Assembly (NCBI RefSeq): GCF_003790525.1
Contig: NZ_CP033633.1
Direction: 5' to 3' (one strand)
DNA length: 64,000 nucleotides
DNA from: Escherichia coli
GTDB lineage: Bacteria; Pseudomonadota; Gammaproteobacteria; Enterobacterales; Enterobacteriaceae
In this document: piece by piece, positions 27,022 to 40,951 of the stretch
Layout of the letters: each line of letters starts with the position of its first letter
Numbering within the stretch: position 1 is the stretch's first letter
Translations under genes and position numbers: made by a program
Notes under the pieces: model-generated
Databases searched by the model: none
Seen by the model: only the letters and a program-made list of their open reading frames with translations
What the model was told of the DNA's origin: nothing

Positions 27022-27375
27022 TATTCTAATAACTGAATCCACACACAGTCAAATGTCATTATTGTGACTAAAAAACGCTCAATTCTCTGAGGGTGTGGCT
27101 GTATGCCTGCTGTGGAGTGCTGTGTCCAGCTTATCCACAGCATTTTGTGCACGGTTCTGTGGACAAAATACCTGGTTACCCAGGCCGTGCCGGCACGTTA
27201 ACCGGGCTGCATCCGATGCAAGTATGTCGCTGTCGCCGGCCTCCTCACCCGGTCACGTTTCGTCGTTCCTCCTCCACGCGCTGCGGCTTCGGGGCCGCAC
27301 CTGCATTCGTATGCGGTCGCCCGGTAACAGGTGCGGCACGGCCTGATGGAGGCCGCATGTGAGAGGAGAATTCCC

Positions 27376-28302
27376 ATGCCAAACTGGTGCTCGAATCGTA
27401 TGTATTTTTCTGGTGAACCGGCACAGATCGCTGAGATTAAACGACTGGCCAGTGGTGCAGTCACACCGCTTTATCGCCGCGCCACAAATGAAGGTATTCA
27501 GCTGTTTCTGGCCGGAAGTGCCGGACTTCTGCAGACCACTGAAGATGTGCGGTTTGAACCATGCCCCGGACTGACGGCTGCCGGACGTGGTGTTGTATCT
27601 CCGGAGAATATAGCGTTCACCCGCTGGCTGACACACCTGCAGAACGGTGTACTGCTGGATGAGCAAAACTGCCTGATGCTGCATGAACTCTGGCTGCAGA
27701 GCGGTACTGGACAGCGTCGCTGGGAAGGATTACCGGACGATGTCAGGGATACCATCACCGCACTTTTCACCGCAAAAAGAGGTGACTGGTGTGGCTTCTG
27801 GAGTAACGAGGATGTATCGGTGTGGTGGAACCGTCTGTGTGACAATGTACTGCCGGAAAAAACCATGCCGTTTGACCTGCTGACGGTTCTGCCGACCCGC
27901 CTTGATGTTGAAGTGAATGGCTTCAACGGTGGTGTTCTGAACGGTGTTCCTTCTGCATATCACTGGTATACAGAACGGTATGGTGTGAAGTGGCCTTGTG
28001 GGTATGACCTGAATATCAGCAGTCAGGGGGAAAACTTCATTCAGGTGGATTTCGACACGCCGTGGTGTCAGCCGGAAAGCGACGTTATTGCAGCATTAAG
28101 CCGCCGTTTCAGCTGCACGCTGGAGCACTGGTATGCCGAACAGGGCTGTGATTTCTGTGGCTGGCAGTTGTATGAGCGCGGAGAGCTTGTTGATGTGCTG
28201 TGGGGGGAACTGGAATGGTCTTCCCCGACAGATGACGATGAGCTGCCGGAAGTCACCGGACCTGCGTGGATAGTCGACAATGTGGCGCATTATGGCGGAT
28301 GA
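27376..28302 (+). CDS. Leading-region hypothetical protein
   Basis: 308 aa from ATG 27376 with RBS GAGAGGAG; no family confidently recognised. Confidence 0.45.
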   Translation: MPNWCSNRMYFSGEPAQIAEIKRLASGAVTPLYRRATNEGIQLFLAGSAGLLQTTEDVRFEPCPGLTAAGRGVVSPENIAFTRWLTHLQNGVLLDEQNCLMLHELWLQSGTGQRRWEGLPDDVRDTITALFTAKRGDWCGFWSNEDVSVWWNRLCDNVLPEKTMPFDLLTVLPTRLDVEVNGFNGGVLNGVPSAYHWYTERYGVKWPCGYDLNISSQGENFIQVDFDTPWCQPESDVIAALSRRFSCTLEHWYAEQGCDFCGWQLYERGELVDVLWGELEWSSPTDDDELPEVTGPAWIVDNVAHYGG

Positions 28303-28349
28303 AGTATGACGGAGACGGGCGGGAAACCGCCCGTTTCTTTTCCGACAAA

Positions 28350-28690
28350 GGATGTCGCCGGCGGCTCCGCTTTACCCGGCCATGCGGGGCATGGCCTTGT
28401 GGGTTTTCAACTCTGTAGCCTCAGCGTCGTGTGCGGGCTGTGCCGTGCCTCCATCGTAGCCGGGCTTCTGCGGGCGGGTTGCAAGGTAAGGTGAACCGCT
28501 GCGGTCACCCGGTCCCTCCTTCCCGTCTGCCGTGATTTTCCGGTCGTTCACCCGCTCAGATTTCGCGGTCTCACCCTCCAACTCCCGTCAGCCGTGTGCG
28601 TCAGGCTGCGGCTTCCCTTGCGCCCTTGCAACCCTGCAGGCCCGGCAAAGATGGAGGCACGGCACCGCCCGGTGTCGCGGAATATGTGAA
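28350..28690. promoter_or_regulatory. Structured GC-rich repeat, family B copy 1 (candidate ssi/Frpo-like single-strand promoter)
   Basis: About 340 bp near-identical to 35303-35647; immediately upstream of klcA. Confidence 0.5.
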
Positions 28691-28707
28691 CAACGGAGGA
28701 AAACATC

Positions 28708-29133
28708 ATGCAATATGCGAAACCTGTCACTCTGAATGTTGAAGAGTGCGACCGTCTCTCCTTTCTGCCTTACCTGTTTGGCAACGATTTTCTGTATGCC
28801 GAGGCGTATGTGTACGCGCTGGCGCAAAAAATGATGCCGGAATATCAGGGAGGCTTCTGGCACTTCATCCGCCTGCCGGACGGTGGCGGTTACATGATGC
28901 CGGATGGCGACCGTTTCCACATGGTGAACGGTGCAAACTGGTTTGACCGTACCGTGAGTGCTGATGCCTGCGGCATCATTCTGACTTCCCTTGTGATTAA
29001 CCGCCAGTTGTGGCTGTACCACGACAGCGGGGATGCGGGACTGACACACCTTTACCGGATGCGCGATGCGCAGTTGTGGAGCCACATCGAATTTCACCCC
29101 GAATGCAATGCGATTTACGCGGCACTGGACTGA
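28708..29133 (+). CDS. klcA: KlcA/ArdB-type antirestriction protein
   Basis: 141 aa; LSFLPYLFG...[16 protein letters not shown] resembles KlcA/ArdB. Confidence 0.8.
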
Positions 29134-29179
29134 TTAACGGACGGGGCGGCGATGCCGCCCCTGTAAAGGAGACGAGAAC

Positions 29180-29599
29180 ATGTACTGTACTGTTAAAGAA
29201 ATTATCCGCGAAGTGCTGGATACAGACGTGCCGGACAGTGAATGCGTTTTTGCTGTGGTGCTGACCCGTGGGGATGTACGTCACATAGCCCAGGACTGGA
29301 GTCTGACAGACGATGAGCTGGAAACCGTCATGCAGCGGCTGGACGATGCCTTTGAGCATGGTGCTGATGTCAGCATTGTTCACGACGTTGTTCGTGAACT
29401 GATGGAGGAAAAGCGCGTAAACCGTCTTGTAACAGTCCCTGCGGTGCTGCTGGAAAAAGTGATGGTGATGGCTGGTAGTGAAATTTATCGCCTCCATGCT
29501 GTAGGGAGCGAGAACGGGGGCGACGGTGACGCATTTGTCAGGGAAGAACGTGAGATTATGCGGTTGATGCGTCAGGCGCTGGACGGGGAGAACGGGTAA
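29180..29599 (+). CDS. Leading-region hypothetical protein
   Basis: 139 aa acidic protein; no family recognised. Confidence 0.4.
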   Translation: MYCTVKEIIREVLDTDVPDSECVFAVVLTRGDVRHIAQDWSLTDDELETVMQRLDDAFEHGADVSIVHDVVRELMEEKRVNRLVTVPAVLLEKVMVMAGSEIYRLHAVGSENGGDGDAFVREEREIMRLMRQALDGENG

Positions 29600-29790
29600 T
29601 GAATATCAGCACAGAAACCCGCGAAATTCTGCGCAATTACAAAGCCGTGATTAATGCACGACGTCGTGAGATGGGGCAGAAACCGCTCACCACCGCGCAG
29701 ATTGTTGATGAAATCTGCGATTTTGTGGCAAATCAGCAGGCTGTTTTCCTCGGCGGTCACTACATCCTTCAGGGCAGCAGAAACAGGTGA
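29599..29790 (+). CDS. Small hypothetical protein
   Basis: 63-aa ORF whose start overlaps the preceding stop; weak. Confidence 0.3.
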   Translation: MNISTETREILRNYKAVINARRREMGQKPLTTAQIVDEICDFVANQQAVFLGGHYILQGSRNR

Positions 29791-29989
29791 TACAGGGCAG
29801 GCGGTGGAGGCCGCCTGTCAGCCCGCGCGAAAACCCCTGGCAGGCTGACGCCTGCCGGAAACGCGGGGTGCAGCGCCTGCGGCGCTGCCGGCCCGGCTTT
29901 CCGGTCAGAAGGTAGTGTATGGCTGTATGCCAGGAACAGGTGTGATATTCCGTGACGCTGTCACCGTTTCTGGCTGTTTTTTGTTGCGC

Positions 29990-30500
29990 CCACTTCGGCT
30001 CCCGGCTGCCTGGCGGCATCCGGTCGTCAGGCCCGACTCCGACAGGCAGCTGCTGGCGCACCCGCCAGTCTCCGCCGAACCCGCTGGCGCGGTTTCGGGC
30101 TGTCGCTACGGTCCGATGCGTGAAAACCCGGGCTTGCAGCGACCGTTCCGGTCGCGCCGCCTCTGTCGCGCCGTGACCTGCGCTCCCTGCACACCTGACG
30201 GTGTGTGAGGAAACTGCGCCTGATGGCGCAGCAGTCTTCCCTCCTGCCGCCACCTCTGCGGCCTGTTTCCCGCTGTGGACTTTCCGGGGGGCAGACGTAA
30301 CCCCCTCCCGTTCCATCTGTCCAGGGTGAGATGCACCGGCCACAAAATTTTTAGCCATGAACCCGGCTAAAAATTTTGCGTCCGCCCCCGGACAGCTGTC
30401 CCGTGAGGCGGTAAACGGGCCCCCATCGGAAAGGTCCACTGCGGGGAGAAACCCCTGTGAAGTGGACGGCAGGAGGAGCTTTCGCTCCTCTGAAGGGGCA
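29990..30500. promoter_or_regulatory. Structured GC-rich repeat, family A copy 1 (candidate ssi/Frpo-like single-strand promoter)
   Basis: About 500 bp repeated at 36343-36848 and partly at 39725-40055; upstream of ssb. Confidence 0.5.
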
Positions 30501-30559
30501 CATGAACGTCCCGTCGCCGGTATCCGGTTTATCTCACATCTTTCAGTCAGGAGGTTCTT

Positions 30560-31087
30560 ATGAGTGCACGTGGTATCAACAAGGTCATCCTCGTCGGGCG
30601 TCTGGGCAATGATCCGGAAGTCCGTTACATCCCCAACGGGGGCGCAGTGGCAAACCTGCAGGTGGCCACGTCAGAAAGCTGGCGCGACAAACAGACGGGG
30701 GAGATGCGGGAGCAGACGGAATGGCACCGCGTGGTGCTGTTCGGCAAGCTCGCGGAAGTGGCAGGTGAATATCTGCGCAAGGGCGCGCAGGTCTACATCG
30801 AGGGGCAACTCCGTACCCGTAGCTGGGAAGATAACGGTATCACCCGTTACGTCACTGAAATTCTTGTTAAGACCACGGGCACCATGCAGATGCTGGGGAG
30901 TGCACCACAGCAGAACGCTCAGGCGCAACCGAAGCCTCAGCAGAATGGGCAGCCACAGAGTGCTGACGCGACGAAAAAAGGTGGCGCGAAAACGAAAGGC
31001 CGTGGACGTAAGGCCGCGCAGCCCGAGTCTCAGCCGCAACCGCCGGAGGGGGAGGATTACGGGTTTTCAGACGATATCCCGTTCTGA
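30560..31087 (+). CDS. ssb: Plasmid single-stranded DNA-binding protein
   Basis: OB-fold N-terminus [18 protein letters not shown], Gln/Pro-rich linker, acidic C-terminal DDIPF tail. Confidence 0.95.
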
Positions 31088-31105
31088 CTGGCCTGACTGT
31101 GATAA

Positions 31106-31378
<273 letters not shown>

Positions 31379-31441
31379 GAGAGGTGCCGGACGGGAACGC
31401 GTCCGGCAGACATACAACCATCCCGGTCAAAGGAGAAATAT

Positions 31442-33001
31442 ATGTCAGTTACAGAGTCTAAGACAAAAACGGAGCGTAAATCCAGCCGTAAACCTGCAAA
31501 AACGCAGGAAACTGCACTGTCTGCCCTGCTGGCGCAGACGGAGGAAGTGAGCGTGCCGCTGGATTCACTGATTAAATCACCGCTGAATGTGCGCACGGTG
31601 CCGTATTCTGCGGAGTCCGTCAGTGAACTGGCTGATTCCATTAAGGGAGTCGGCCTGCTGCAGAATCTGGTTGTTCATGCCCTGCCAGGTGACCGTTACG
31701 GTGTCGCCGCAGGTGGTCGCCGACTGGCAGCACTCAACATGCTGGCAGAGCGTGACATCATTCAGGCTGACTGGCCTGTCCGCGTGAAAATTATTCCGCA
31801 GGAGCTGGCGACGGCTGCATCGATGACCGAGAACGGTCATCGTCGGGATATGCACCCTGCCGAACAGATTGCCGGATTCCGCGCAATGGCGCAGGAAGGC
31901 AAAACACCTGCGCAAATCGGTGATTTGCTGGGCTATTCACCCCGCCATGTCCAGCGAATGCTGAAACTGGCTGACCTTGCGCCTGTCATCCTCGATGCGC
32001 TGGCAGAAGACCGCATCACCACCGAACACTGTCAGGCGCTGGCGCTGGAGAACGACACCGCGCGTCAGGTGCAGGTGTTTGAAGCCGCCTGCCAGTCAGG
32101 ATGGGGTGGAAAACCGGATGTGCGGGTTATCCGCAACCTGATTACGGAAAGTGAAGTGGCGGTGAAGGACAACACTAAATTTCGCTTTGTGGGGGCTGAT
32201 GCTTTCTCGCCTGACGAACTGCGCACCGATTTGTTCAGCGATGACGGGGACGGTTATGTCGACCGCGTGGCGCTCGATGCCGCCCTGCTGGAAAAACTCC
32301 AGGTTGTTGCAGAGTCCCTTCGGGAAGCAGAAGGCTGGGAATGGTGCGCCGGGCGCATGGAGCCAGTCGGTGAGTGCCGTGAGGATGCCGGAACATACCG
32401 CTGTCTGCCGGAGCCGGAAGCGGTGCTGACGGAGGCGGAAGAAGAACGCCTGAACGAACTGATGACGCGTTACGACGCGCTGGAAAACCAGTGTGAGGAA
32501 TCCGACCTGCTGGAAGCAGAAATGAAGCTGATGCGCTGCATGGCGAAGGTCAGAGCGTGGACGCCGGAGATACGTGCCGGAAGCGGTGTGGTGGTGTCCT
32601 GGCGTTATGGCAACGTATGTGTCCAGCGTGGTGTGCAGTTGCGCAGTGAAGATGACGCGACTGACGACGCTGACCGCACGGAACAGGTGCAGGAGAAAGC
32701 GTCAGTGGAGGAAATCAGTCTGCCACTGCTGACGAAAATGTCTTCCGAACGCACGCTGGCAGTCCAGGCGGCACTGATGCAGCAACCGGACAAATCCCTG
32801 ACACTGCTGGCATGGACGCTCTGCCTGAATGTGTTTGGCAGCGGAGCGTACAGTAAACCAGCACAAATCAGCCTGGAATGTAAACATTATTCGCTGACCA
32901 GCGATGCGCCGTCAGGGAAGGAAGGTGCCGCATTCATGGCGCTGATGGCAGAAAAAGCCCGTCTTGCGGCCCTGTACCGGAGGGATGGTCACGGGACATG
33001 A
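31442..33001 (+). CDS. ParB-like nuclease-domain protein of the leading region
   Basis: 519 aa; N-terminal ParB/Srx-like region (GLLQNLVV...GGRRLAAL). Confidence 0.65.
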   Translation: MSVTESKTKTERKSSRKPAKTQETALSALLAQTEEVSVPLDSLIKSPLNVRTVPYSAESVSELADSIKGVGLLQNLVVHALPGDRYGVAAGGRRLAALNMLAERDIIQADWPVRVKIIPQELATAASMTENGHRRDMHPAEQIAGFRAMAQEGKTPAQIGDLLGYSPRHVQRMLKLADLAPVILDALAEDRITTEHCQALALENDTARQVQVFEAACQSGWGGKPDVRVIRNLITESEVAVKDNTKFRFVGADAFSPDELRTDLFSDDGDGYVDRVALDAALLEKLQVVAESLREAEGWEWCAGRMEPVGECREDAGTYRCLPEPEAVLTEAEEERLNELMTRYDALENQCEESDLLEAEMKLMRCMAKVRAWTPEIRAGSGVVVSWRYGNVCVQRGVQLRSEDDATDDADRTEQVQEKASVEEISLPLLTKMSSERTLAVQAALMQQPDKSLTLLAWTLCLNVFGSGAYSKPAQISLECKHYSLTSDAPSGKEGAAFMALMAEKARLAALYRRDGHGT

Positions 33002-33399
33002 CGACATTCCTTTCACTCAGTCAGGAGGTGCTGTTATCCCTGCTCAGTTTCTGCACCGCGTGCAGCATCCACGGCGTTCAGACCCGCGAGTGTGGTCACA
33101 CGTCACGCAGCCCGCTGGACACGCTGGAGAGCGCCATCGGTTTTCACATGCGCGACTGGTGGCAGCCGACAAAAGCAAACTTCTTCGGACACCTGAAAAA
33201 GCCGCAGATTATCGCAGCCCTGAATGAGGCAGGACTGTCCGGTGCCGCACGGGACGCGGAGAAGATGAAGAAAGGCGATGCGGCTGAACATGCAGAGTTC
33301 CATATGAAAGACAACCGCTGGGTGCCTGGCTGGATGTGTGCACCACGTCCACAGACGGATACCACTGAACGCACTGATAACCTGGCTGATGCCGCCTGA
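32998..33399 (+). CDS. Hypothetical protein, ATGA-coupled to the ParB-like gene (possibly its detached C-terminal part)
   Basis: 133-aa ORF starting at the ATGA overlap with the preceding stop. Confidence 0.35.
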   Translation: MTTFLSLSQEVLLSLLSFCTACSIHGVQTRECGHTSRSPLDTLESAIGFHMRDWWQPTKANFFGHLKKPQIIAALNEAGLSGAARDAEKMKKGDAAEHAEFHMKDNRWVPGWMCAPRPQTDTTERTDNLADAA

Positions 33400-33453
33400 T
33401 GAACAACCACACCGCCCCGCCGGAGACGGGGCGGCAGCAAGGGAGATACCGTG

Positions 33454-33888
33454 ATGAAAACTGAACTGACCCTGAATGTCCTGCAGACCATGAACGCACA
33501 GGAATATGAAGATATCCGTGCTGCGGGAAGCGATATGCGCCGTAATCTCACTCACGAGGTGATGCGTAAAGTGGACGCACCGGCTAACTGGATGATGAAT
33601 GGCGAGTATGGCAGTGAGTTCGGGGGCTTTTTCCCCGTCCAGGTTCGTTTCACGCCAGCCCACGAACGTTTCCACCTGGCATTATGTTCGCCGGGAGACG
33701 TCTCTCAACTCTGGATGCTGGTTCTGGTGAATGGTGGTGGACAGCCTTTCGCCGTCGTTCAGGTGCAACATATCTTCACGCCTGTCGCGATCAGTCACAC
33801 GCTGGCGCTCGCCGCGACACTTGATGCGCAGGGATACAGTGTTAACGACATCATTCATATTTTGATGGCAGAAGGAGGTCAGGCATGA
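33454..33888 (+). CDS. psiB: PsiB, plasmid SOS-inhibition protein
   Basis: [27 protein letters not shown]... near-identical to F PsiB. Confidence 0.9.
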
Positions 33889-34604
33889 GCGCACGTTCAC
33901 GGGCACTGATCCCCCTCAGCGCAGAACAACAGGCCGCCATGCAGGCTGTGGCTGTCACCGAACAACGTCGTCGTCAGGGACGCACACTTTCAGCATGGCC
34001 TTATGCCAGCGCTTTCTTTCGCTGCCTGAATGGCAGTCGCCGGATTTCGCTGACCGATCTCCGCTTTTTTGCCCCTGCGCTGACGAAGGAGGAATTTCAT
34101 GGCAACCGTCTCCTGTGGCTGGCTGCCGTGGATAAACTGATTGAAAGTTTTGGTGAAGTCTGTGTTCTTCCCCTGCCATCCGATGCGGGGCATCGTCTGT
34201 TCCCGTCTGTTCCTTTTCGTGAAGGTGAGCGTCGTCGTCAGAAAACCACGCTGACAGAGCAGAAATACAGCCGCCAGCGGGAACGTGAGGCAGAACGACG
34301 GGAACTGGAATACCAGACATGTTTTGCTCAGGCGCAGATTGACCTTGCGTTTCATACTCCCGCCACGGTCGGAAGCTGGTTGTCCCGCTGGTCTGGTGCT
34401 GTTGAGGAGCATGATCTGGAAACGATTTTCTGGGGGTGGTGCGGGCGTTTTCCGTCACTGTCATCATTTGACCGGTTTTTCTGGCAGGAGGGACCACTCT
34501 GGCGGCTGATTTTTGAAGCCGGTGAGGCCGGTCGTGGTGCACCGGTACAGGTACGTGCACTTGAGCAGTGGATGATCCCGAACAAGCTGGAGAACGTAAT
34601 ATGA
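33885..34604 (+). CDS. psiA: PsiA
   Basis: 239 aa directly after psiB with overlapping stop/start, as in F and ColIb-P9 leading regions. Confidence 0.8.
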
Positions 34605-35197
34605 TGAAATCAGACGAAAAATATCAGGTTCCCGTGTGGATGCGACCTCTGTTGCCGTTGCTCTGCAACACCGGGGGGAACGATCCGGAAGAACTGCTGA
34701 ATGATACAGCAACCACTGTCAGTGCGAATGTTGTCCGTTATGTACTGATAGTTGCTGTGCGGTCGCAGGTTGATCTGCTGCAGATTCTGTACAGGAAAGG
34801 GCTGTTGCGCACAGAGATACCAGGTGGCTTTTCACCGGAAGAAGCGCAGGCACTCCTGGATAATCTGGTGCGCAGCCATATCAGCAGGGCGCTGTCGGGT
34901 GAGCGAATGGCAGCCCGTGACAGAAATGCCGATCTGGCCTGGATTCGACAGCAACTGGTCGATGCCGCCTGGTTTGTCCGTGCCACACTGGAGGCGCATG
35001 GGATGGGCGTCGGAAATGAGAGTCCCCCTGCTCAGCCGGAGACAATGCCGGACATACAGACACGGGAACTGGTGATGTTGATCAAGCGACTGGCATCATC
35101 GCTGAAAGCGGTGAAACCGGACAGTTGTGTGGTGCGTGAAGCGCAGGACTGGCTGCGCGACAGAAAACTTGTGAGCATCACGGATGTTCTTCGGTGA
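34601..35197 (+). CDS. Leading-region hypothetical protein
   Basis: About 198 aa from the internal Met; no family recognised. Confidence 0.4.
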   Translation: MMKSDEKYQVPVWMRPLLPLLCNTGGNDPEELLNDTATTVSANVVRYVLIVAVRSQVDLLQILYRKGLLRTEIPGGFSPEEAQALLDNLVRSHISRALSGERMAARDRNADLAWIRQQLVDAAWFVRATLEAHGMGVGNESPPAQPETMPDIQTRELVMLIKRLASSLKAVKPDSCVVREAQDWLRDRKLVSITDVLR

Positions 35198-35302
35198 ACC
35201 AGTGGAGGTATGCTTGAGGGGCAGGGACATGCCGGTCATGATCGTTTCGTTCCAGGGGTGGTCTGGAGATCATGCGGTGTGCTCCCTGCTCTCGCCGGAA
35301 TA

Positions 35303-35647
35303 AGGACGTCGCCGGCGGCTCCGCTTTTACCCGGCCATGCGGGGCATGGCCTTGTGGGTTTTCAGGTATGAAGCCATCGTGTCGTGTGCGGGCTGTGCCG
35401 TGCCTCCATCGTAGCCGGGCTTCTGCGGGCGGGATGCAAAGGTACGCTTCGCCGCTGCGGTCACCCGGTCCCTCCTTCCCGTCTGCCGTGATTTTCCGGT
35501 CGTTCACCCGCTCAGATTTCGCGGTCTCACCCTCCAACTCCCGTCAGCCGTGCGCGTCGGGCTGCGGCTTTCCTTGCGCCCTTGCATCCCTGCAGGCCCG
35601 GCAAGGATGGAGGCACGGCACCGCCCGGTGCCGCAGAACATGTGACT
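35303..35647. promoter_or_regulatory. Structured GC-rich repeat, family B copy 2
   Basis: Near-identical to 28350-28690; immediately upstream of ardA. Confidence 0.5.
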
Positions 35648-35662
35648 ATGGAGGATTCGGGA

Positions 35663-36163
35663 ATGTCTGTTGTTGCACCTGCTGTATACGTTGGAACCTG
35701 GCACAAATACAACTGCGGAAGCATCGCCGGACGCTGGTTTGACCTGACCACGTTTGATGATGAACGCGATTTTTTCGCCGCCTGCCGTGCCCTTCACCAG
35801 GATGAAACCGATCCGGAACTGATGTTTCAGGATTATGAGGGATTCCCGGGGAATATGGCCTCTGAATGTCATATCAACTGGGCCTGGGTTGAAGGCTTCC
35901 GCCGGGCGCGGGATGAAGGCTGCGAAGAGGCTTATCGTCTCTGGGTGGATGATACCGGTGAGACGGATTTTGACACCTTCCGCGATGCCTGGTGGGGCGA
36001 GGCTGACAGTGAGGAGGCTTTTGCGGTTGAGTTCGCCAGTGATACCGGCCTGCTGGCTGGCGTGCCGGAGACGGTGGCGCTCTATTTTGACTATGAGGCG
36101 TATGCGCGGGATTTATTCCTGGACTCCTTCACCTTTATTGACGGTCATGTGTTCCGTCGGTGA
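35663..36163 (+). CDS. ardA: ArdA antirestriction protein (type I restriction inhibitor)
   Basis: MSVVAPAVYVGTWHKYNCGSIAGRWFDL... near-identical to ColIb-P9 ArdA; 166 aa from ATG 35663. Confidence 0.9.
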   Translation: MSVVAPAVYVGTWHKYNCGSIAGRWFDLTTFDDERDFFAACRALHQDETDPELMFQDYEGFPGNMASECHINWAWVEGFRRARDEGCEEAYRLWVDDTGETDFDTFRDAWWGEADSEEAFAVEFASDTGLLAGVPETVALYFDYEAYARDLFLDSFTFIDGHVFRR

Positions 36164-36342
36164 TTTACTCCCCCGCTCCGGCGGGGGTATGGCCTGCCGG
36201 GCCGCCGGAAAACCCTGGCAGGCTTACGCCTGCCTGAAATGCAGGAGGGCCGCGCCTGCGGCGCTGCCCTTCCTGCCCGTCATGGTGTGAGGCATTTTTC
36301 TGTTATGTCGTTTCTGTTGTTCTGATTTCCGGAGGCGGGGAC

Positions 36343-36848
36343 ACCCTTCGGCTCCCGGCTGCCTGGCGGCATCCGGTCGTCAGGCCCGACTCCGACAGGC
36401 AGCTGCTGGCGCACCCGCCAGTCTCCGCCGAACCCGCTGGCGCGGTTTCGGGCTGCCGCTACGGTCCGATGTCTGAAAAACCAGGCCTGCAGCGACCGTT
36501 CCGGTCGCGCCGCCCCTGTCGCGCCGGAAACGGCGCTCCCTGCACACCTGACGGTGTGTAAGGCCACTGCGCCTGATGGCGCAGTTGTCTGCCCTTCCGC
36601 CGCCACCCCTGCGGCCTGTTTCCCGCTGTGGACTTTCCGGGGGCTGAAGCGGCCACAACACGTTTCAGCCGTCCAGGGGAGAGATGTACCAGCCACAAAA
36701 CTTTTTGCCGCAGGCGTCAAAAACTTTTGCGTCTGCCCCCGGACAACTGCCCCGTGCCGTGGCAGTCGCTGCCCCATCGGAAAGGTCCACTGCGGGGAGA
36801 AACCCCGAAGAAGTGGACGGCAGAAGGGGCTTTCGCCCCTCCGGGGAA
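36343..36848. promoter_or_regulatory. Structured GC-rich repeat, family A copy 2
   Basis: Near-identical to 29990-30500; upstream of ORF 36895. Confidence 0.5.
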
Positions 36849-36894
36849 TAACCGGTCGGCCCGGCGACCTGATTCAGCAGAAGGAGACGTTTTC

Positions 36895-37329
36895 ATGACA
36901 GTCAGCAGCACGATTTCCGTTTTTTGCCGAGACGGGGTGTTCCGTACCGTTTACTGCCACCTGCACGGTGAGCCGACCTGGAACGGTCGCATCCTGCATA
37001 CCCACTATGCCACCGGTCAGCTGGCCGAAGCCCTGGTTGAACACGGAGATATCCGTTGCCTCGGTCCCCGTTGCGACAAACCCGCCGGGCATACGCTTCA
37101 GAACCCGGTGGACGGTGTGACGGCTTATTACGGACGTGACAGTGGTTTCCGGATGGACAGTGAAGCGCGTGAGTACCGCTCTTTCAGGGAGGCTATTGCC
37201 ACTGAAAGCACAGAAGAGGTGCGCTTCCATTATGTGTTCATCGACGGCTACTGGAAGGTGATGTACCGCACGCCGGAAGGCTGGAAGATGAAAGCGCTCG
37301 CGCTGGCACTGCGTCGCTGTCCGGAATGA
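36895..37329 (+). CDS. Leading-region hypothetical protein
   Basis: 144 aa, Cys/His-rich N-terminus; no family recognised. Confidence 0.4.
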   Translation: MTVSSTISVFCRDGVFRTVYCHLHGEPTWNGRILHTHYATGQLAEALVEHGDIRCLGPRCDKPAGHTLQNPVDGVTAYYGRDSGFRMDSEAREYRSFREAIATESTEEVRFHYVFIDGYWKVMYRTPEGWKMKALALALRRCPE

Positions 37330-37421
37330 AAAAAAGCAGGGCGATAAACCCTGCCTTTCTCCGCCGGCGCTTCCCCGTACGGAAGTCCGGCATCTCATTC
37401 ACTAACTATGGAGATTATGCT

Positions 37422-37688
37422 ATGAGGCCATCAATTATCTTCGCAACCGCCGAGTATGTAAAGCGTCTGCGTGAAGAGTGCCGGCGGGAGAACAAACCCC
37501 TGCACCGCCATACCCGCTTCAGACGCCAGGAACTGGCACCGGATGAGATTAACCCGGACGTCCTGGCGATGGGCGGTCATATCGCCAGACGCTGCAGTGA
37601 GCGGAAGCGGGTGCGTATCCCCGCCATGAAAGTCAGCGAATGGGGCCACCTGCTCCGCGCGCTTGAAATTGAGCGGGTCTGCCACTGA
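37422..37688 (+). CDS. Small basic hypothetical protein
   Basis: 88 aa from ATG 37422. Confidence 0.35.
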   Translation: MRPSIIFATAEYVKRLREECRRENKPLHRHTRFRRQELAPDEINPDVLAMGGHIARRCSERKRVRIPAMKVSEWGHLLRALEIERVCH

Positions 37689-37752
37689 TTAACCCTTGCC
37701 GTCTGCCTGTGCAGGCGGCAGGATACGTTCAGACATCTCACCAGGAGGAACC

Positions 37753-38715
37753 GTGAGTAAGAAGAAAACCACCACGACGCCCACGCCGCATGATGCCGCG
37801 TTCCGGTCGTTCCTGGCGAACCCCGACGTCGCCAGAGATTTTCTGGAACTGCATCTTCCGGCGGAGTACCGGCAGTTGTGCGACCTGTCCACGCTGAAGC
37901 TGGAACCCGCCACCTTTGTTGAGCCGGACCTGCATCAGTACGCCAGCGATATCCTCTGGAGTGTGAAAACCACCGGGGGTGAAGACGGCTATATTTATAC
38001 GCTCATCGAGCACCAGAGCACCGAAAATCTGTACATGCCTTTCCGCATGTTACGTTACAGTGTGGCGGCGATGCAGAGACATCTGGAGCAGCACAAAACA
38101 TTGCCACTGGTGATTCCGGTGCTGTTCTATCATGGTGAGCGCAGCCCGTACCCGTACAGCATGAACTGGCTGGACTGTTTTGAGGATCCGGCGCTTGCGG
38201 CTAAAATATACACAAAGCCGTTTCCGCTGGTTGATATCACTGTCGTTGATGACAATGAAATCATGAACCATCGCCGGATGGCCGCACTGACGCTGCTGAT
38301 GAAGCATATCCGCCATCGTGACATGATGGAGCTGCTGGACAAACTCCCGCAGGTCATGGTGGAAATTTCAGACGAGCAGGTGCGTGTTCTGATTCATTAC
38401 ATCGTTAACGCAGGGGACTCTGTATCACCGGAATTTATGCGGGCGCTGGCTGAGCGTCTGCCGCAGCATGAGGATAAACTGATGACTATTGCCGAACGTC
38501 TTGAGCAGCAAGGAATACAGAAAGGAATACAGCAGGGAATACAGCAGGGAATACAGCAGGGAATACAGCAGGGAATACAGCAGGGAATACAGAAAGGCCG
38601 CATGGAGGAGAAGCAGGATATTGCGCGTCAGCTTCAGAAAACGGGAATGCCATCTGCACAAATCTGTCAGATCACCGGACTTTCCGAAGCTGAACTGAAG
38701 AACATCACTCACTGA
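37753..38715 (+). CDS. Rpn (YhgA-like) recombination-promoting nuclease, full length
   Basis: GTG start after RBS; N-terminal domain DAAFRSFL...DILWSV...YTLIEHQST; C-terminal MTIAERLEQ...TGLSEAELKNI module containing seven in-frame 12-bp repeats. Confidence 0.75.
   Translation: MSKKKTTTTPTPHDAAFRSFLANPDVARDFLELHLPAEYRQLCDLSTLKLEPATFVEPDLHQYASDILWSVKTTGGEDGYIYTLIEHQSTENLYMPFRMLRYSVAAMQRHLEQHKTLPLVIPVLFYHGERSPYPYSMNWLDCFEDPALAAKIYTKPFPLVDITVVDDNEIMNHRRMAALTLLMKHIRHRDMMELLDKLPQVMVEISDEQVRVLIHYIVNAGDSVSPEFMRALAERLPQHEDKLMTIAERLEQQGIQKGIQQGIQQGIQQGIQQGIQQGIQKGRMEEKQDIARQLQKTGMPSAQICQITGLSEAELKNITH
38512..38595 (+). repeat. In-frame 12-bp tandem repeat (7 units, GIQQ/GIQK) inside the Rpn gene
   Basis: GGAATACAGCAG repeated seven times with two A-for-C variants. 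Confidence 0.9.
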
Positions 38716-38728
38716 TGAGAACCACAAA

Positions 38729-38753
38729 GCCCGGCAAAATGCCGGGTTTTTTT
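38729..38753. terminator. Rho-independent terminator after the Rpn gene
   Basis: CCCGGCAAAATGCCGGG followed by TTTTTTT. Confidence 0.6.
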
Positions 38754-38777
38754 GTCAGCAGGAGCAGAGCAAACAGT

Positions 38778-38951
38778 ATGACGATTGCAGAACGTCTTGA
38801 GCAAAAAGGTCGCCAGGAGGGCAGGATGGAAGGTGCGCTTGAAAAAGCCCTGGCTATTGCGTGCCAGCTTCAGAAAATGGGGATGACGCCGGAGCAGATT
38901 AAGCAGGCTACCGGACTGTCCGAAGCTGAACTGAAAAAAATCATTCACTGA
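38778..38951 (+). CDS. Stand-alone Rpn C-terminal-domain small protein (RpnS-like), copy 1
   Basis: 57 aa MTIAERLEQKGRQEGRMEG...TGLSEAELKKIIH; paralogous to the C-terminus of the Rpn gene. Confidence 0.5.
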   Translation: MTIAERLEQKGRQEGRMEGALEKALAIACQLQKMGMTPEQIKQATGLSEAELKKIIH

Positions 38952-38965
38952 TGAGAGCATCACAG

Positions 38966-38990
38966 CCCGGAAGAATGCCGGGCTTTTTTG
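38966..38990. terminator. Rho-independent terminator after RpnS-like copy 1
   Basis: AGCCCGGAAGAATGCCGGGCT followed by TTTTTT. Confidence 0.6.
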
Positions 38991-39009
38991 CCAGCAGGGG
39001 CAGAGCAGT

Positions 39010-39240
39010 ATGACTATTGCAGAACGTCTTATACAGAAAGGTTTCGACGAAGGTTTTAAAGAAAGTTTTAAAGAAAGTTTTAAAGAAGGCTTTAAAGAAG
39101 GCTTTAAAGAAGGGGCGCTTGAAGTGGCGCGGGAAATAGCCTGCCGGCTGCGGGATATAGGCTGGCCGCCGGAACGGATTCAGGAGGTCACGGGACTTTC
39201 CGGTGAAGAACTGAAAAAGCTGTTTCCTGATGAGCAGTAG
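39010..39240 (+). CDS. Stand-alone Rpn C-terminal-domain small protein (RpnS-like), copy 2
   Basis: 76 aa MTIAERLIQKG...(FKES/FKEG x5)...TGLSGEELKKLF; contains its own 12-bp tandem array at about 39050-39112. Confidence 0.5.
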   Translation: MTIAERLIQKGFDEGFKESFKESFKEGFKEGFKEGALEVAREIACRLRDIGWPPERIQEVTGLSGEELKKLFPDEQ

Positions 39241-39270
39241 CCTGGCATTCAGCCAGGCTGTGAATCATGC

Positions 39271-39522
39271 TCACACATCCTCTGCCGTTTCCCCCAGTTC
39301 ATTTTCCAGACGCCTGATGATATCTGCCTTACGCATCCCCTGCATGTGAGGCAGCAGGTCACGGACTGAAAGAGCCTGGGTGGTCCTCCAGACGGTGACG
39401 TCCACCTGTTCCGCATTTTCCCAGGCGTGCCATGTTCTCTGCGTCACGCCAAATTCTCTGGCCGCTTTTTCGCGTGACCAGAGCATGCTTTTTCGCCAGA
39501 TTCGCAGTTCCCAGCCGGTCAT
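39271..39522 (-). CDS. Small helix-turn-helix regulator (hypothetical)
   Basis: 83 aa; HTH-like segment AAREFGVTQRTWHAWEN. Confidence 0.45.
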   Translation of the reverse strand: MTGWELRIWRKSMLWSREKAAREFGVTQRTWHAWENAEQVDVTVWRTTQALSVRDLLPHMQGMRKADIIRRLENELGETAEDV

Positions 39523-39536
39523 AAAACACCTTTGAA

Positions 39537-39625
39537 AAAGTGAAAAAACTTCACTTTATTTTATCACCATAATTGCCAAATCAGCGCGATAAATAAGTGT
39601 GAAAAAAGTGAAGAAATTTCACTTT
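39537..39625. promoter_or_regulatory. Two 21-bp palindromic operator-like sites flanking a promoter
   Basis: AAAGTGAA-N5-TTCACTTT at 39537-39557 and 39605-39625, about 68 bp apart, upstream of the HTH gene. Confidence 0.45.
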
Positions 39626-39724
39626 TTTTGGTTGCAGATGTCGTGCGGTTTTCTCTGTTTTCACCTGTGCGGGAGTGGTGCGCCAGTGACCACAGCATGC
39701 CGTTGTTGTGCCGTCGGTTTTCTC

Positions 39725-40055
39725 CGGTCGCGCCGGATGCGGCGCTCCCTGCACACCTGACGGTGTGTAAGGCCACTGCGCCTGATGGCGCAGCTGTCTC
39801 TGCCTGTCTGCCGCCGCACTGCGGCCCGTTCTCCGCAGACGAACTTTCCGGGGGTACATACACGACCACATCCCGTTTCAGTCGTCCAGGGGAGAGATGT
39901 ACCAGCCACAAAACTTTTTGCCGCAGGCGTCAAAAACTTTTGCGTCTGCCCCCGGACAACTGCCCCGTGACGTGGTGAGCGTCCCCCGTCGGAAAGGTCC
40001 ACTGCGGGGAAATCCCCGAAGACCCGGACGGCAGAAGGAGCTTCGCTCCTCCGGG
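39725..40055. promoter_or_regulatory. Structured GC-rich repeat, family A copy 3 (shorter)
   Basis: Shares the 3' roughly 330 bp of family A; upstream of ORF 40100. Confidence 0.5.
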
Positions 40056-40099
40056 AAATGACCTGGCTGACCCGGCAGTCGTGACGATGAGGAGACAAT

Positions 40100-40951
40100 G
40101 TGATGAATCAGACTTTACCCACTGCTGACCTGAATACTGCCGGCACGACAGATGTTATTCCGTCTGTGGCTATCGACCGCATCATCGCGCAGCGTAACGA
40201 AGGTATTGCACTGTTCATGCAGGCGATGGAATGCCTGGCGACAGCGCGCAGGATTCTGCTCGATGCGTCAGGTGATATTTTTCTTTACGGGTTTGAAGAC
40301 TGCGTGACTGATTCCGTTCGTCGCATGGATAAACCGGAAGAAGCGAAAAGGAATATCACCCGTCTTGCCGACCGGAAAATCTGGGACCGCCTGATGACAG
40401 ATACGGGCATGTACACCTTCATGAGTTCATGCCAGCGTGATGAGTGGAACAGCCAGCTGATGAGCGACACCTGTCCTGAAATCATCCTGGACAATGTACT
40501 GGCAACATTCCGCCATCTGAATGCCAGCAAAATGCAGACATTTGAACAGGGACTGATTGATGTCTACCGGAAATTGTCATGGGATTACAGAACCAATAAT
40601 CCCTGCCGTCTGGGCAAGAGAATCATTATTGAAAACCTGCTGTACCGCTGGAGTAACGGGCGTGTGACGCTGGACTGCAGCGGGCGGGAGGCACTGGATG
40701 ACCTGGTACGTCCGTTTTATCTGCTGGATGGGCGCAACATTCCTGACTTCCGGAGCAGCATCGGGGCGCAGTATGGTGAATTTCTCGGGAACGGCGACAA
40801 TGTCGGTAAGCTGTTAGAAGGGGAATATTTTACGGTGCGTGGCTACCAGAAAGGGACCGTACACATTGTCTTTAAGCGTTCTGACCTTGTTGAAAAACTG
40901 AATGATATTATTGCACGGCATTATCCTGGTGCATTGCCGCCACGAGTCTGA
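40100..40951 (+). CDS. Leading-region hypothetical protein, the plus-strand gene nearest oriT
   Basis: 283 aa; no family recognised. Confidence 0.45.
   Translation: MMNQTLPTADLNTAGTTDVIPSVAIDRIIAQRNEGIALFMQAMECLATARRILLDASGDIFLYGFEDCVTDSVRRMDKPEEAKRNITRLADRKIWDRLMTDTGMYTFMSSCQRDEWNSQLMSDTCPEIILDNVLATFRHLNASKMQTFEQGLIDVYRKLSWDYRTNNPCRLGKRIIIENLLYRWSNGRVTLDCSGREALDDLVRPFYLLDGRNIPDFRSSIGAQYGEFLGNGDNVGKLLEGEYFTVRGYQKGTVHIVFKRSDLVEKLNDIIARHYPGALPPRV

What the first reader, a model, noticed from the sequence alone, without database searches (positions are those of the whole stretch)
27376..40951. Unannotated ORFs interleaved with antirestriction and SOS-inhibition genes are anti-defence candidates
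Between klcA, ssb, psiB-psiA and ardA lie at least seven ORFs with no recognisable family (27376-28302, 29180-29599, 31139-31378, 34601-35197, 36895-37329, 37422-37688, 40100-40951). All are co-oriented toward oriT, and several sit directly behind a structured repeat. ORF 40100-40951 (283 aa) is the plus-strand gene closest to oriT and has its own repeat copy. Leading regions are known to concentrate anti-restriction, anti-SOS and anti-CRISPR functions, so these are plausible new anti-defence genes.
Basis: inference. Interest (0 to 1): 0.55.

Follow-up and report, generated by a model that had tools for sequence, protein, structure and literature searches.

The report
Known uncharacterised plasmid leading-region genes
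The seven ORFs are real, conserved genes in the first-transferred part of an IncK/IncI-type E. coli conjugative plasmid, but their families were already catalogued in 2024 as uncharacterised, possibly anti-defence, leading-region genes, and their functions remain unknown.

Summary
The window holds the leading region of an IncK/IncI-gamma conjugative plasmid, 99% identical to pF1022-2. It runs from an impC/umuDC-like operon to oriT/nikAB.

All seven ORFs are real. Each has a Shine-Dalgarno sequence and is intact in an IncI1 plasmid; dN/dS, measurable for six (ORF2's alignment had gaps), is 0.14-0.66. All point towards oriT. They lie in six operons. Five operons start with structured repeats homologous to the single-stranded-DNA promoters of F and IncI1: three of class 1 (Frpo/ssi) and two of class 2.

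"No recognisable family" is wrong for most:
- ORF1 is DUF1281 (solved relative 2ijr).
- ORF2 is DUF1380.
- ORF3 is DUF905 (solved relative 2hjj).
- ORF7 is DUF4942.
- ORF4 and ORF5 match phage families.
- ORF6 belongs to a large plasmid-only family.

Samuel et al. (Nature 2024) already list these families as uncharacterised leading-region genes. TnSeq on pESBL found all seven homologues dispensable for maintenance and for transfer into K-12.

New details here:
- ORF7 is only the non-catalytic N-terminal module of a methyltransferase family.
- The ORF5 and ORF7 models match no solved fold.
- ORF1 and ORF2 are as acidic as ArdA.

Anti-defence roles remain plausible but untested.

The parts
25029..27042 (-). 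umuC-like (25029-26300), umuD-like (26300-26737) and dinI/impC-like (26734-27042) genes. They form the distal boundary of the island.
   Evidence: boundary role as described in PMC11541004
27043..27375 (.). Structured, non-repeated spacer upstream of ORF1. It is conserved in IncI1 (97.6%) and F (95%). No promoter has been identified in it.
27376..28302 (+). ORF1, 308 aa, DUF1281 plus DUF1281_C (YubB/YfdA/YccB family; homologue of pESBL Hp8). Net charge is -22, with 16 Trp. It is missing from several close relatives and frameshifted in F.
28371..28689 (.). Class-2 single-stranded-DNA promoter repeat, copy 1, upstream of klcA. It is homologous to the region upstream of klcA in F (89%).
   Evidence: classes defined in PMC12672017
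28708..29133 (+). klcA/ardB anti-restriction gene (Pfam Antirestrict)
29180..29599 (+). ORF2, 139 aa, DUF1380 (weak Pfam match; NCBI names it a DUF1380 family protein; homologue of pESBL Hp12). It is 22% Asp+Glu, with net charge -15.
29599..29790 (+). 63-aa ORF (homologue of pESBL Hp13) whose start overlaps the stop of ORF2. It is 100% identical in F and has no family.
29993..30490 (.). Class-1 (Frpo/ssi-type) single-stranded-DNA promoter repeat, copy 1, upstream of ssb
30560..31087 (+). Plasmid ssb gene
31139..31378 (+). ORF3, 79 aa, DUF905 (YfjA/YubL/YkfF family; homologue of pESBL Hp14). The solved relative is 2hjj (YkfF).
31442..33399 (+). ParB-like herB/yfjB/yfhA gene. In this window it is broken by a 1-nt deletion at about 32974, giving ORFs of 519 aa and 133 aa.
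   Evidence: PMC13370423, PMC10104558
33451..34604 (+). psiB (33451-33888) and psiA (33885-34604)
34601..35197 (+). ORF4, 198 aa, YgaA (homologue of pESBL Hp15). Its start overlaps the psiA stop (ATGA). It is a mosaic: residues 73-151 resemble a lambdoid Ea22-region protein and residues 151-198 match PHROG 660/924. No Pfam family. dN/dS is 0.66.
35326..35645 (.). Class-2 single-stranded-DNA promoter repeat, copy 2, upstream of ardA
35663..36163 (+). ardA anti-restriction gene
36346..36841 (.). Class-1 single-stranded-DNA promoter repeat, copy 2, upstream of ORF5
36895..37329 (+). ORF5, 144 aa (homologue of pESBL Hp16, often mislabelled 'PndC'). It matches PHROG 1987/23089 and has homologues in jumbo, KVP40-like and T4-like cyanophages. 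The AlphaFold2 model has pLDDT 86 and matches no solved fold.
37422..37688 (+). ORF6, 88 aa, basic (pI 10.4; homologue of pESBL Hp17). It matches no library, but at least 5000 plasmid records hold homologues. In pO157 a 45%-identical relative heads a DUF3560 plus methyltransferase operon.
37753..38715 (+). Rpn (YhgA-like, Transposase_31) nuclease gene carrying 12-nt (4-aa, GIQQ) tandem repeats
   Evidence: PMC10327210
38715..39240 (+). Two stand-alone minigenes resembling the Rpn C-terminus (RpnS-like): 38715-38951 and 39010-39240. The second carries FKE(S/G) 4-aa repeats.
39271..39522 (-). Small helix-turn-helix regulator on the opposite strand (homologue of pESBL Hp21). By position and strand it corresponds to Samuel et al. 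family 22, 'HTH / aca6-like' (inferred).
39724..39975 (.). Class-1 single-stranded-DNA promoter repeat, copy 3, upstream of ORF7
40100..40951 (+). ORF7, 282-283 aa, DUF4942 (YgfB/YdiA; homologue of pESBL Hp22). It is the first T-strand gene to enter the recipient. It ends at the ALPPRV motif, where fused relatives continue into a gamma-class N6-adenine methyltransferase domain. It has no methyltransferase domain itself.
41037..41378 (-). yggA-like gene (PGAP label 'MobC'), on the opposite strand
41379..41604 (.). oriT-containing spacer, placed by its position relative to pESBL oriT. It is structured (z -5.7).
   Evidence: inference by synteny
41605..44651 (+). nikA (41605-41937) and nikB relaxase (41949-44651)

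Best explanation
The seven ORFs are conserved accessory genes of the IncI-complex leading region, which is a published type of 'anti-defence island'. They lie in six operons on the strand whose template is the transferred strand (the window's minus strand).

Five operons begin with long hairpin-forming repeats homologous to the Frpo/ssi (class 1) and class-2 single-stranded-DNA promoters of F and IncI1. The inferred sequence of events is as follows. When the T-strand enters a recipient, these hairpins recruit host RNA polymerase. The operons fire in a short burst ('zygotic induction') before the complementary strand is made, and they fall silent once the DNA is double-stranded.

The known products act on the recipient. 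ArdA and KlcA block type I restriction, PsiB blocks SOS induction, SSB coats single-stranded DNA, and ParB-like HerB reprograms host transcription.

My best reading is that the seven unknowns are further short-lived, recipient-directed establishment factors. They look more like binders or inhibitors than enzymes:
- ORF1 and ORF2 are as acidic as ArdA.
- ORF7 is the non-catalytic module of a methyltransferase family.
- ORF5 is a small alpha/beta domain shared with large lytic phages.
- ORF4 is a mosaic of lambdoid early-region modules.
- ORF3 is a YkfF-type mini-domain.
- ORF6 is a small basic protein.

I put the chance that at least one is a true defence inhibitor at about 0.6, and the chance that all seven are at under 0.05. 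The anatomy, homologies and repeats are shown here. The timing of expression comes from published work on IncI1 pESBL and F. The functions are inference.
For: - Identity and synteny with IncK and IncI1 plasmids.
- Real coding genes.
- Repeats and their structure.
- Homology of the repeats to the F Frpo1/Frpo2 regions and to the region upstream of klcA in F.
- pESBL RNA-seq with 5' RACE found six induced operons with class 1-3 single-stranded-DNA promoters (PMC12672017).
- The simple sigma-70 scan finds only one + strand consensus site in 14.8 kb.
- TnSeq classed all pESBL homologues as non-essential for maintenance and for transfer into K-12 (PMC4288162).
- DUF905, DUF1380, DUF4942, DUF1281, the 'PndC'-named family and Rpn are enriched on the T-strand of leading regions (PMC11541004 supplement).
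- Net charges.
- ORF7's domain limits against methyltransferase-fused relatives.
- Phage relatives of ORF5 and ORF4.
Against: - No experiment or homology ties any of the seven to a defence system.
- ORF1 has no recognised single-stranded-DNA promoter. Its pESBL homologue (Hp8) lies outside the six promoter-headed operons as I map them, so it may not be induced at entry.
- ORF1 is frameshifted in F and absent from several close relatives, so it may be decaying.
- The dN/dS values rest on 9-43 substitutions each.
- The neighbouring genes herB and rpn show that leading-region genes can have other roles.
- Induction was not measured for this plasmid.
Confidence: 0.72

Rival explanations
1. Establishment factors that are not anti-defence. 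The proteins would adjust recipient physiology, as HerB does. They might dampen the cost of acquisition, tune the SOS or stress response, or help convert single-stranded DNA to double-stranded DNA and recircularise it, without targeting an immune system.
For: HerB/YfjB lies in the same ssb operon as ORF3 and ORF4. It reprograms host transcription and relieves acquisition cost (PMC13370423). ORF4 is translationally coupled to psiA. DUF905 always travels with ssb and the parB-like gene (PMC12826799). Benz et al. suggest that yfhA and ykfF interact (PMC10104558).
Against: Known anti-defence genes are heavily concentrated in the same operons (klcA with ORF2; ardA one operon away from ORF5/6). Deleting the F promoter that drives the klcA homologue mainly affects transfer into non-isogenic hosts rich in restriction systems.
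Confidence: 0.3
2. Some of the ORFs serve the plasmid against competitors. They would be defence, exclusion or addiction functions against phages or other plasmids rather than counter-defence.
For: The same operon as ORF5/ORF6 carries an Rpn nuclease and two RpnS-like minigenes. That system was shown to be a toxin-antitoxin anti-phage system for a plasmid Rpn (PMC10327210). ORF4 and ORF5 share modules with phage accessory genes.
Against: None of the seven gave a credible PADLOC match. Expression limited to the first minutes after entry fits poorly with standing defence. No toxin-like partner is evident.
Confidence: 0.1
3. ORF7 (DUF4942) is a DNA methyltransferase that protects the incoming DNA, as many database labels and Samuel et al.'s 'putative methyltransferase' tag imply.
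For: PHROG 6263 'DNA methyltransferase' matches it (1e-17). UniProt relatives carry the name 'Methyltransferase' (supplement). Some relatives are fused to a class-I methyltransferase domain with LEPSAGxG and NPPF motifs.
Against: ORF7 ends at the ALPPRV motif, exactly where the methyltransferase domain begins in the fused proteins. Pfam finds only DUF4942 in it. It has no SAM-binding or (D/N)PP(Y/F) motif. The model shows a helical N-terminal part plus a small alpha/beta C-terminal part, with no Rossmann-fold match. Most of the 150 best-scoring representatives shown, from 3240 matching clusters, are stand-alone proteins of about 270 aa. No M.EcoGIX homologue is present in the window, and the fused domain is not M.EcoGIX-like.
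Confidence: 0.05
4. Some of the ORFs are decaying hitch-hikers with no current function.
For: All are dispensable in TnSeq. ORF1 is frameshifted in F and absent from several IncK/B/O relatives. herB is frameshifted here. ORF4 has dN/dS 0.66.
Against: All are intact here and in IncI1, and dN/dS is below 1 for the six measured. The families hold thousands of members across IncI, IncK, IncF, IncL/M and IncHI2 plasmids and keep a conserved position and strand.
Confidence: 0.1

Closest known systems
Leading-region 'anti-defence islands' of conjugative plasmids (Samuel et al., Nature 2024, PMC11541004)
   Same: The boundaries (oriT and a umuDC-like operon), T-strand orientation and Frpo promoters are the same. 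So is the mix of klcA, ardA, psiBA and ssb with uncharacterised families. DUF905, DUF1380, DUF4942 and DUF1281 are families 2, 7, 24 and 27 in their table.
   Different: Nothing substantive. This is one more instance, in the IncK/IncI-gamma backbone. It lacks the M.EcoGIX methyltransferase operon that IncI1 and F carry at the same place.
pESBL / R64 / ColIb-P9 IncI1 leading region, with six operons driven by single-stranded-DNA promoters (Wen et al. 2025, PMC12672017; Yamaichi et al. 2015, PMC4288162)
   Same: The gene order matches one to one: Hp8, KlcA, Hp12, Hp13, Ssb, Hp14, ParB-like, PsiB, PsiA, Hp15/YgaA, ArdA, Hp16, Hp17, Rpn, Hp20, Hp21, Hp22, YggA, oriT, NikAB. Nucleotide identity to the IncI1 plasmid EcPF18 p2, which has the same gene order, is 89-98%. 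The class-1 and class-2 promoter repeats occupy the same places.
   Different: The class-3 promoter with M.EcoGIX, Hp9, Hp10 and Hp11 is missing. The Rpn gene is intact here (split in pESBL) and is followed by two RpnS-like minigenes rather than one. The ParB-like gene is frameshifted.
ArdA, KlcA/ArdB and Ocr-type protein inhibitors of restriction
   Same: They share location, orientation and early expression. ORF1 (net -22) and ORF2 (net -15) are as acidic as ArdA (net -23).
   Different: There is no sequence match to the ArdA or Antirestrict Pfam families, and no DNA-mimic fold was shown. Acidity alone is weak evidence.
M.EcoGIX-type single-strand-specific orphan methyltransferases of leading regions (PMC7736820, PMC4288162)
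   Same: They share the leading-region position and the protective logic. Relatives of ORF7 are fused to a methyltransferase domain.
   Different: ORF7 has no catalytic domain. The fused domain is gamma-class (SAM motif before NPPF), whereas M.EcoGIX is beta-class (DPPY before the SAM motif), and BLASTP finds no similarity.
HerB/YfjB ParB-like host reprogrammer (PMC13370423)
   Same: It sits in the same operon as ORF3 and ORF4 and is zygotically induced. It was also 'unknown' until tested.
   Different: It shows that a leading-region gene need not be anti-defence. None of the seven ORFs has ParB/HTH features.

Membership tests
Leading-region anti-defence island (Samuel et al. 2024) | Lies between oriT and a umuDC-like operon, on the side that enters first | tested here: met
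   The umuC/umuD/dinI-like genes are at 25029-27042 (- strand) and oriT/nikAB begin at about 41379.
Leading-region anti-defence island (Samuel et al. 2024) | Genes are encoded so that the transferred strand is the template | tested here: met
   All seven ORFs and klcA, ssb, psiBA and ardA are on the + strand pointing towards oriT, the same arrangement as in pESBL and F.
Leading-region anti-defence island (Samuel et al. 2024) | Contains known anti-restriction and anti-SOS genes | tested here: met
   Pfam finds ArdA (3e-29) and Antirestrict (1e-25); psiB and psiA are annotated.
Frpo/ssi single-stranded-DNA promoters (classes 1 and 2 of Wen et al. 2025) | Sequence homology to the F Frpo regions, or to the IncI1/F region upstream of klcA | tested here: met
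   blastn links the class-1 copies to F L011 10175-10481 and 15559-15895, and the class-2 copies to L011 8393-8755 at 89%.
Frpo/ssi single-stranded-DNA promoters (classes 1 and 2 of Wen et al. 2025) | Extensive hairpin structure of the transferred strand | tested here: met
   DNA-parameter folding gives z from -3.5 to -10.4 against dinucleotide shuffles.
Frpo/ssi single-stranded-DNA promoters (classes 1 and 2 of Wen et al. 2025) | Transcription starts from single-stranded DNA in new transconjugants | not testable with these tools
   Shown by RNA-seq and 5' RACE for pESBL and F (PMC12672017), not for this plasmid.
Anti-defence protein (functional class) | Inhibits a defined defence system or restores transfer into a defence-proficient recipient | not testable with these tools
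   I found no experiment for any of the seven families. TnSeq tested only a K-12 recipient.
Known anti-restriction / anti-SOS families (ArdA, KlcA/ArdB, PsiB) | Sequence match of the seven ORFs to those families | tested here: not met
   Pfam, NCBIfam, PHROGs and PDB sequence searches give only DUF or unknown families. The ESMFold/Foldseek screen of Samuel et al. lists 'NA' against their anti-CRISPR and anti-restriction sets for the DUF905, DUF1380, DUF4942 and DUF1281 families.
DNA methyltransferase (label attached to DUF4942/ORF7) | SAM-binding motif I and catalytic (D/N)PP(Y/F) motif within a class-I Rossmann fold | tested here: not met
   Pfam finds only DUF4942 in ORF7. The protein ends where the fused relatives' methyltransferase domain (LEPSAGxG ... 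NPPF) starts. The model has no Rossmann-fold match.
PndC post-segregation killing protein (label attached to ORF5) | Tiny leader ORF of a hok/pnd-type toxin locus with an antisense RNA | tested here: not met
   ORF5 is a 144-aa soluble alpha/beta protein with jumbo-phage homologues. No Hok gene is annotated nearby and Rfam finds no hok/sok-type RNA in 20000-46000.
Plasmid housekeeping functions (replication, partition, transfer) | Needed for maintenance or conjugation | tested here: not met
   Taken from the literature, not computed here. The pESBL homologues Hp8, 12, 14, 15, 17 and 22 score 0.95-1.00 'non-essential'. Hp16 scores 0.76 non-essential and 0.24 essential for maintenance (PMC4288162 Table 2).
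DNA-mimic inhibitors (ArdA/Ocr type), considered for ORF1 and ORF2 | Strongly acidic surface imitating B-DNA | tested here: inconclusive
   Net charges are -22 and -15, against -23 for ArdA. I did not test surface geometry.

The most novel reading that the evidence does not exclude
One or more of the families with no matching solved fold is the founder of a new class of anti-defence protein. The candidates are DUF4942/YgfB, the very first gene to enter and a methyltransferase-family module that has shed its catalytic domain, and the ORF5 family, which is shared between plasmid leading regions and jumbo, T4-like and cyanophage genomes. Such a protein would neutralise a recipient immune system by binding it.
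Probability: 0.35. Interest if true: 0.65.

Novelty: already known. Interest (0 to 1): 0.3.

Why it matters
IncI, IncK and IncF plasmids are major carriers of ESBL and other resistance genes. What their first-expressed genes do in a new host helps decide which strains they can invade. The seven families sit in thousands of plasmids and are still functionally blank, so each is a fair target for experiments. The hypothesis, the gene families and the promoter architecture are already published, however, so this finding adds no new concept. It does offer a tidy, fully mapped example and a few clarifications. ORF7 is not a methyltransferase. The 'PndC' label on ORF5 is wrong. ORF5 belongs to a family shared between phages and plasmids.

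Tried and rejected
- NCBIfam and PADLOC gave nothing usable for the seven ORFs.
- Sequence searches of the PDB found relatives only for ORF1 (2ijr) and ORF3 (2hjj), both structural-genomics entries of unknown function. Profile searches with the ORF7 and ORF5 alignments found nothing meaningful.
- I tested a 'Rosetta stone' link between DUF4942 and M.EcoGIX and rejected it. The two methyltransferase classes differ, BLASTP finds no similarity, and the window has no M.EcoGIX homologue.
- The long form of ORF6 (37326, ATGA overlap with ORF5) was rejected because the extension carries an indel in IncI1.
- Context look-ups for three distant DUF4942 proteins returned only short contigs of 2-7 kb and told me little.
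- The expression table of Wen et al. 2025 is not held as a supplement, so I could not read per-gene induction values for Hp8 or Hp22.
- Word-indexed homologue searches for ORF4 and ORF5 returned only close relatives. I obtained distant ORF5 relatives by tblastn against phage genomes instead.
- I did not locate -35/-10 elements inside the hairpins. The consensus scan found none at 9 of 12 matches or better.

Full report
**What the region is.**
Window 27000-41500 is 99% identical over its whole length to the E. coli plasmid pF1022-2 (IncI-gamma/K1, MOBP, MPF_I). It matches at least 5000 plasmid records, most of them conjugative enterobacterial plasmids. The PGAP annotation of that relative and of an IncI1 plasmid gives the layout below.

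- On the minus strand lies a dinI/umuD/umuC-like operon (25029-27042).
- On the plus strand follow ORF1, klcA, ORF2, a 63-aa ORF, ssb, ORF3, a ParB-like gene, psiB, psiA, ORF4, ardA, ORF5, ORF6, an Rpn nuclease and two small Rpn-C-terminal genes.
- Then come a minus-strand HTH gene, ORF7, a minus-strand yggA-like gene, oriT, and nikA/nikB.

This is the classical IncI-complex leading region. It corresponds gene for gene to the re-annotated pESBL map: Hp8, KlcA, Hp12, Hp13, Ssb, Hp14, ParB-like, PsiB, PsiA, Hp15/YgaA, ArdA, Hp16, Hp17, Hp18/19, Hp20, Hp21, Hp22, YggA, oriT, NikA, NikB (PMC4288162).

**Are the ORFs real?**
All seven exist at the stated coordinates.

- Each is preceded by a GGAG-type Shine-Dalgarno sequence.
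- ORF4 overlaps the psiA stop (ATGA).
- All seven are open in the IncI1 plasmid EcPF18 p2. Six align to it without gaps at 89-98% nucleotide identity, with dN/dS of 0.14-0.66, compared with 0.05-0.19 for klcA, ssb, psiB, psiA and ardA. ORF2 (89.6% identical) aligned with gaps, so its dN/dS was not computed.
- The counts are small (9-43 differences each), so the ratios are rough.
- PGAP starts ORF7 at ATG 40103.
- A longer ORF6 starting at 37326 is not conserved in frame.

**The structured repeats.**
The repeat finder and alignments show two repeat families.

| Class | Copies | Identity between copies | Gene downstream |
|---|---|---|---|
| 1 | 29993-30490, 36346-36841, 39724-39975 | mean column identity 78% across the three (93% over 298 nt between the first two) | ssb, ORF5, ORF7 |
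| 2 | 28371-28689, 35326-35645 | 92-94% | klcA, ardA |

- Folded as single-stranded DNA, the six spacers upstream of operons have z-scores from -3.5 to -10.4 against dinucleotide shuffles. Two coding controls give about -0.2 to -1.5; a third, inside the parB-like gene, gave about -4.9.
- The class-1 copies are homologous to the F-plasmid segments upstream of ssb and of the oriT-proximal operon, where Frpo2 and Frpo1 lie.
- The class-2 copies are 89% identical to the F segment upstream of its klcA homologue.
- Wen et al. 2025 mapped exactly these elements in pESBL as class-1 (ssi1-3) and class-2 single-stranded-DNA promoters. They confirmed the start sites by 5' RACE and measured up to about 500-fold induction in 15-min transconjugants (PMC12672017).
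- A crude sigma-70 scan finds only one + strand consensus site in the whole 14.8 kb. That fits genes that depend on these unusual promoters.
- ORF1 is the exception. Its upstream spacer is structured (z about -4) and conserved in IncI1 and F, but it is not one of the repeats. The six pESBL promoters described head the M.EcoGIX, klcA, ssb and ardA operons and, as I map ssi1-3, the Hp16 and Hp22 operons. Hp8 is not among them.

**'No recognisable family' does not hold.**

| ORF | Family evidence |
|---|---|
| ORF1 | DUF1281 plus DUF1281_C (5e-49, 7e-15); 3e-50 to the crystal structure 2ijr (Api92, function unknown) |
| ORF2 | DUF1380, weak (5e-4); NCBI names the homologue a DUF1380 family protein |
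| ORF3 | DUF905 (1e-34); 8e-22 to 2hjj (E. coli YkfF) |
| ORF7 | DUF4942 (2e-50) |
| ORF5 | PHROG 1987 and 23089 (1e-20) |
| ORF4 | C-terminus matches PHROG 660/924 |
| ORF6 | No library match, but tblastn finds it in at least 5000 plasmid records |

For ORF6, about 3000 of the matching records are below 60% identity; the sampled distant hits are about 45% identical and include IncF plasmids. In pO157 the relative heads a DUF3560 plus methyltransferase operon. NCBIfam and PADLOC gave nothing usable.

**What is already published.**
Samuel et al. (Nature 2024) showed that leading regions are anti-defence islands bounded by oriT and umuDC. They found that genes there sit on the T-strand behind Frpo promoters, and that a third of the 100 largest enriched families are uncharacterised and 'probably' anti-defence.

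Their Supplementary Table 1 lists these families, all on the T-strand unless noted:

| Their family no. | Family | Median position from oriT |
|---|---|---|
| 2 | DUF905 | 12 |
| 7 | DUF1380 | 19 |
| 24 | DUF4942, tagged 'Methyltransferase' | 1 |
| 27 | DUF1281 | 22 |
| 23 | A family named 'PndC' | 7 |
| 18, 20 | Rpn | 4 and 3 |
| 22 | aca6-like HTH, on the opposite strand | 2 |

- Their ESMFold/Foldseek screen found no similarity of these families to known anti-CRISPR or anti-restriction structures.
- The pESBL TnSeq study classed every homologue as non-essential for maintenance and for transfer into a K-12 recipient. Hp16 (ORF5) scored 0.76 non-essential and 0.24 essential for maintenance.
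The housekeeping alternative it named as a refutation is already disfavoured. The positive test, transfer into defence-proficient recipients, has been reported only for M.EcoGIX and for an F promoter deletion that removes the klcA homologue.

**ORF7 (DUF4942).**
- A profile search of 1.84 billion representative proteins found 3240 clusters. Most of the 150 best-scoring representatives shown are stand-alone proteins of about 260-295 aa, alongside some shorter fragments.
- tblastn finds the family in at least 5000 plasmid records, including IncI1, IncK, IncL/M (the pOXA-48 type) and IncHI2.
- A minority of relatives are fused at the C-terminus to a class-I methyltransferase domain with LEPSAGxG and NPPF motifs. 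Examples are P0169 and P0260, a 483-aa protein of Sphingobium pNIN2, and a 563-aa IncHI2 protein. That explains the 'methyltransferase' labels.
- ORF7 stops at ALPPRV, exactly at the domain boundary, and carries no catalytic motifs.
- The fused domain is not related to M.EcoGIX, and the window contains no M.EcoGIX homologue.
- ORF7 is therefore a non-catalytic module of unknown activity. It is the first gene to enter the recipient and sits behind a class-1 promoter, divergent from an aca6-like HTH gene.

**ORF5.**
- Databases often call it 'post-segregation killing protein PndC'. That label cannot be right for a 144-aa soluble protein with no annotated Hok partner and no hok/sok-type Rfam hit nearby.
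- tblastn finds 25-46% identical proteins in jumbo phages (GAP32, BF, CBB, XbC2), KVP40-like vibriophages, T4-like cyanophages and Caulobacter phages. There they lie among runs of small unknown genes.
- The family shares the motifs MxTRS, YxHWDGYP, YGRDRGE and EEYxYxF..GxW. The plasmid protein has HLHGEP in place of HWDGYP.
- A domain shared by plasmid leading regions and large lytic phages is the pattern expected of a host-takeover or counter-defence protein. That is inference only.

**The other ORFs.**
- ORF4 (YgaA) is restricted to close IncI/K relatives in the word-indexed search. It is a mosaic: residues 73-151 are 48-59% identical to Ea22-region proteins of Stx and lambdoid phages, residues 6-68 match a Cronobacter phage protein, and residues 151-198 match Eaa-type C-termini.
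- ORF1 (net charge -22, 16 Trp) and ORF2 (22% acidic residues, net -15) are as acidic as ArdA (net -23). ORF6 is basic, with pI 10.4.
- F carries ORF2, the 63-aa ORF and ORF3, plus a frameshifted ORF1. It lacks ORF4 to ORF7.
- Several close IncK/B/O relatives lack the ORF1 segment (hits H11-H15).

**Verdict.**

The most likely mechanism is burst expression from single-stranded-DNA promoters in the new host, with the products acting as short-lived, host-directed binders. At least one may well inhibit a defence system. Others may act as HerB does, on host physiology rather than on immunity. Nothing here is categorically new.

Noticed in passing
window 31442-33399 (deletion at about 32974): The ParB-like herB/yfjB/yfhA gene differs from the pF1022-2 copy by one missing T (TGTTAC becomes TGTAC). 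This splits it into ORFs of 519 aa and 133 aa. Benz et al. 2023 saw loss-of-function mutations in this same gene arise in IncI-gamma ESBL plasmids and raise the transfer rate in a strain-specific way. It could equally be a sequencing error.
   Followed up: partly
window 28303-28373, compared with L004 4891-7498: The class-3 promoter and the M.EcoGIX methyltransferase operon (methyltransferase, Hp9, a second DUF1380 gene and YchA) sit between DUF1281 and klcA in IncI1 and F. That segment of about 2.5 kb is absent here, and no homologue exists anywhere in the 64-kb window.
   Followed up: yes
window 37753-39240: An Rpn (YhgA-like) nuclease gene carries about 7 tandem 12-nt repeats (GIQQ). It is followed by two stand-alone minigenes resembling the Rpn C-terminus; the second has FKE(S/G) repeats. 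This matches the RpnL/RpnS toxin-antitoxin and anti-phage system with variable 4-aa repeats described by Zhong et al. 2023. The extra RpnS copies might neutralise Rpn nucleases in recipients (speculation).
   Followed up: partly
window 39271-39522 (- strand): An 83-aa helix-turn-helix gene lies on the opposite strand, divergent from the class-1 promoter of ORF7. By position and strand it corresponds to Samuel et al.'s family 22 ('HTH regulator; aca6-like', median position 2, opposite strand). It may repress neighbouring genes once the plasmid is double-stranded.
   Followed up: partly
window 29687-30439, 36280-36777, 39661-40098 (- strand) and others: The GC-rich promoter repeats contain long mechanical ORFs of up to 250 aa. 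Some relatives annotate a 104-aa 'hypothetical protein' inside them (L004 9014-9328). These are probably not genes.
   Followed up: partly
window 44687-45312: A pemI/pemK (MazE/MazF-type) toxin-antitoxin pair lies directly after the nikB relaxase gene.
   Followed up: no
window 45905-45991 (+ strand): Rfam matches the ALIL pseudoknot (63.8 bits, gathering score 50). This is the frameshifting element of an IS3-family insertion sequence, so an IS probably sits just beyond the toxin-antitoxin pair.
   Followed up: no
L003 6412-6530 (pOXA-48-type IncL plasmid): A short stretch similar to the class-1 repeat (72-85% identity) lies upstream of the IncL DUF4942 gene. The pairing of this promoter type with DUF4942 may therefore extend beyond the IncI complex.
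   Followed up: no
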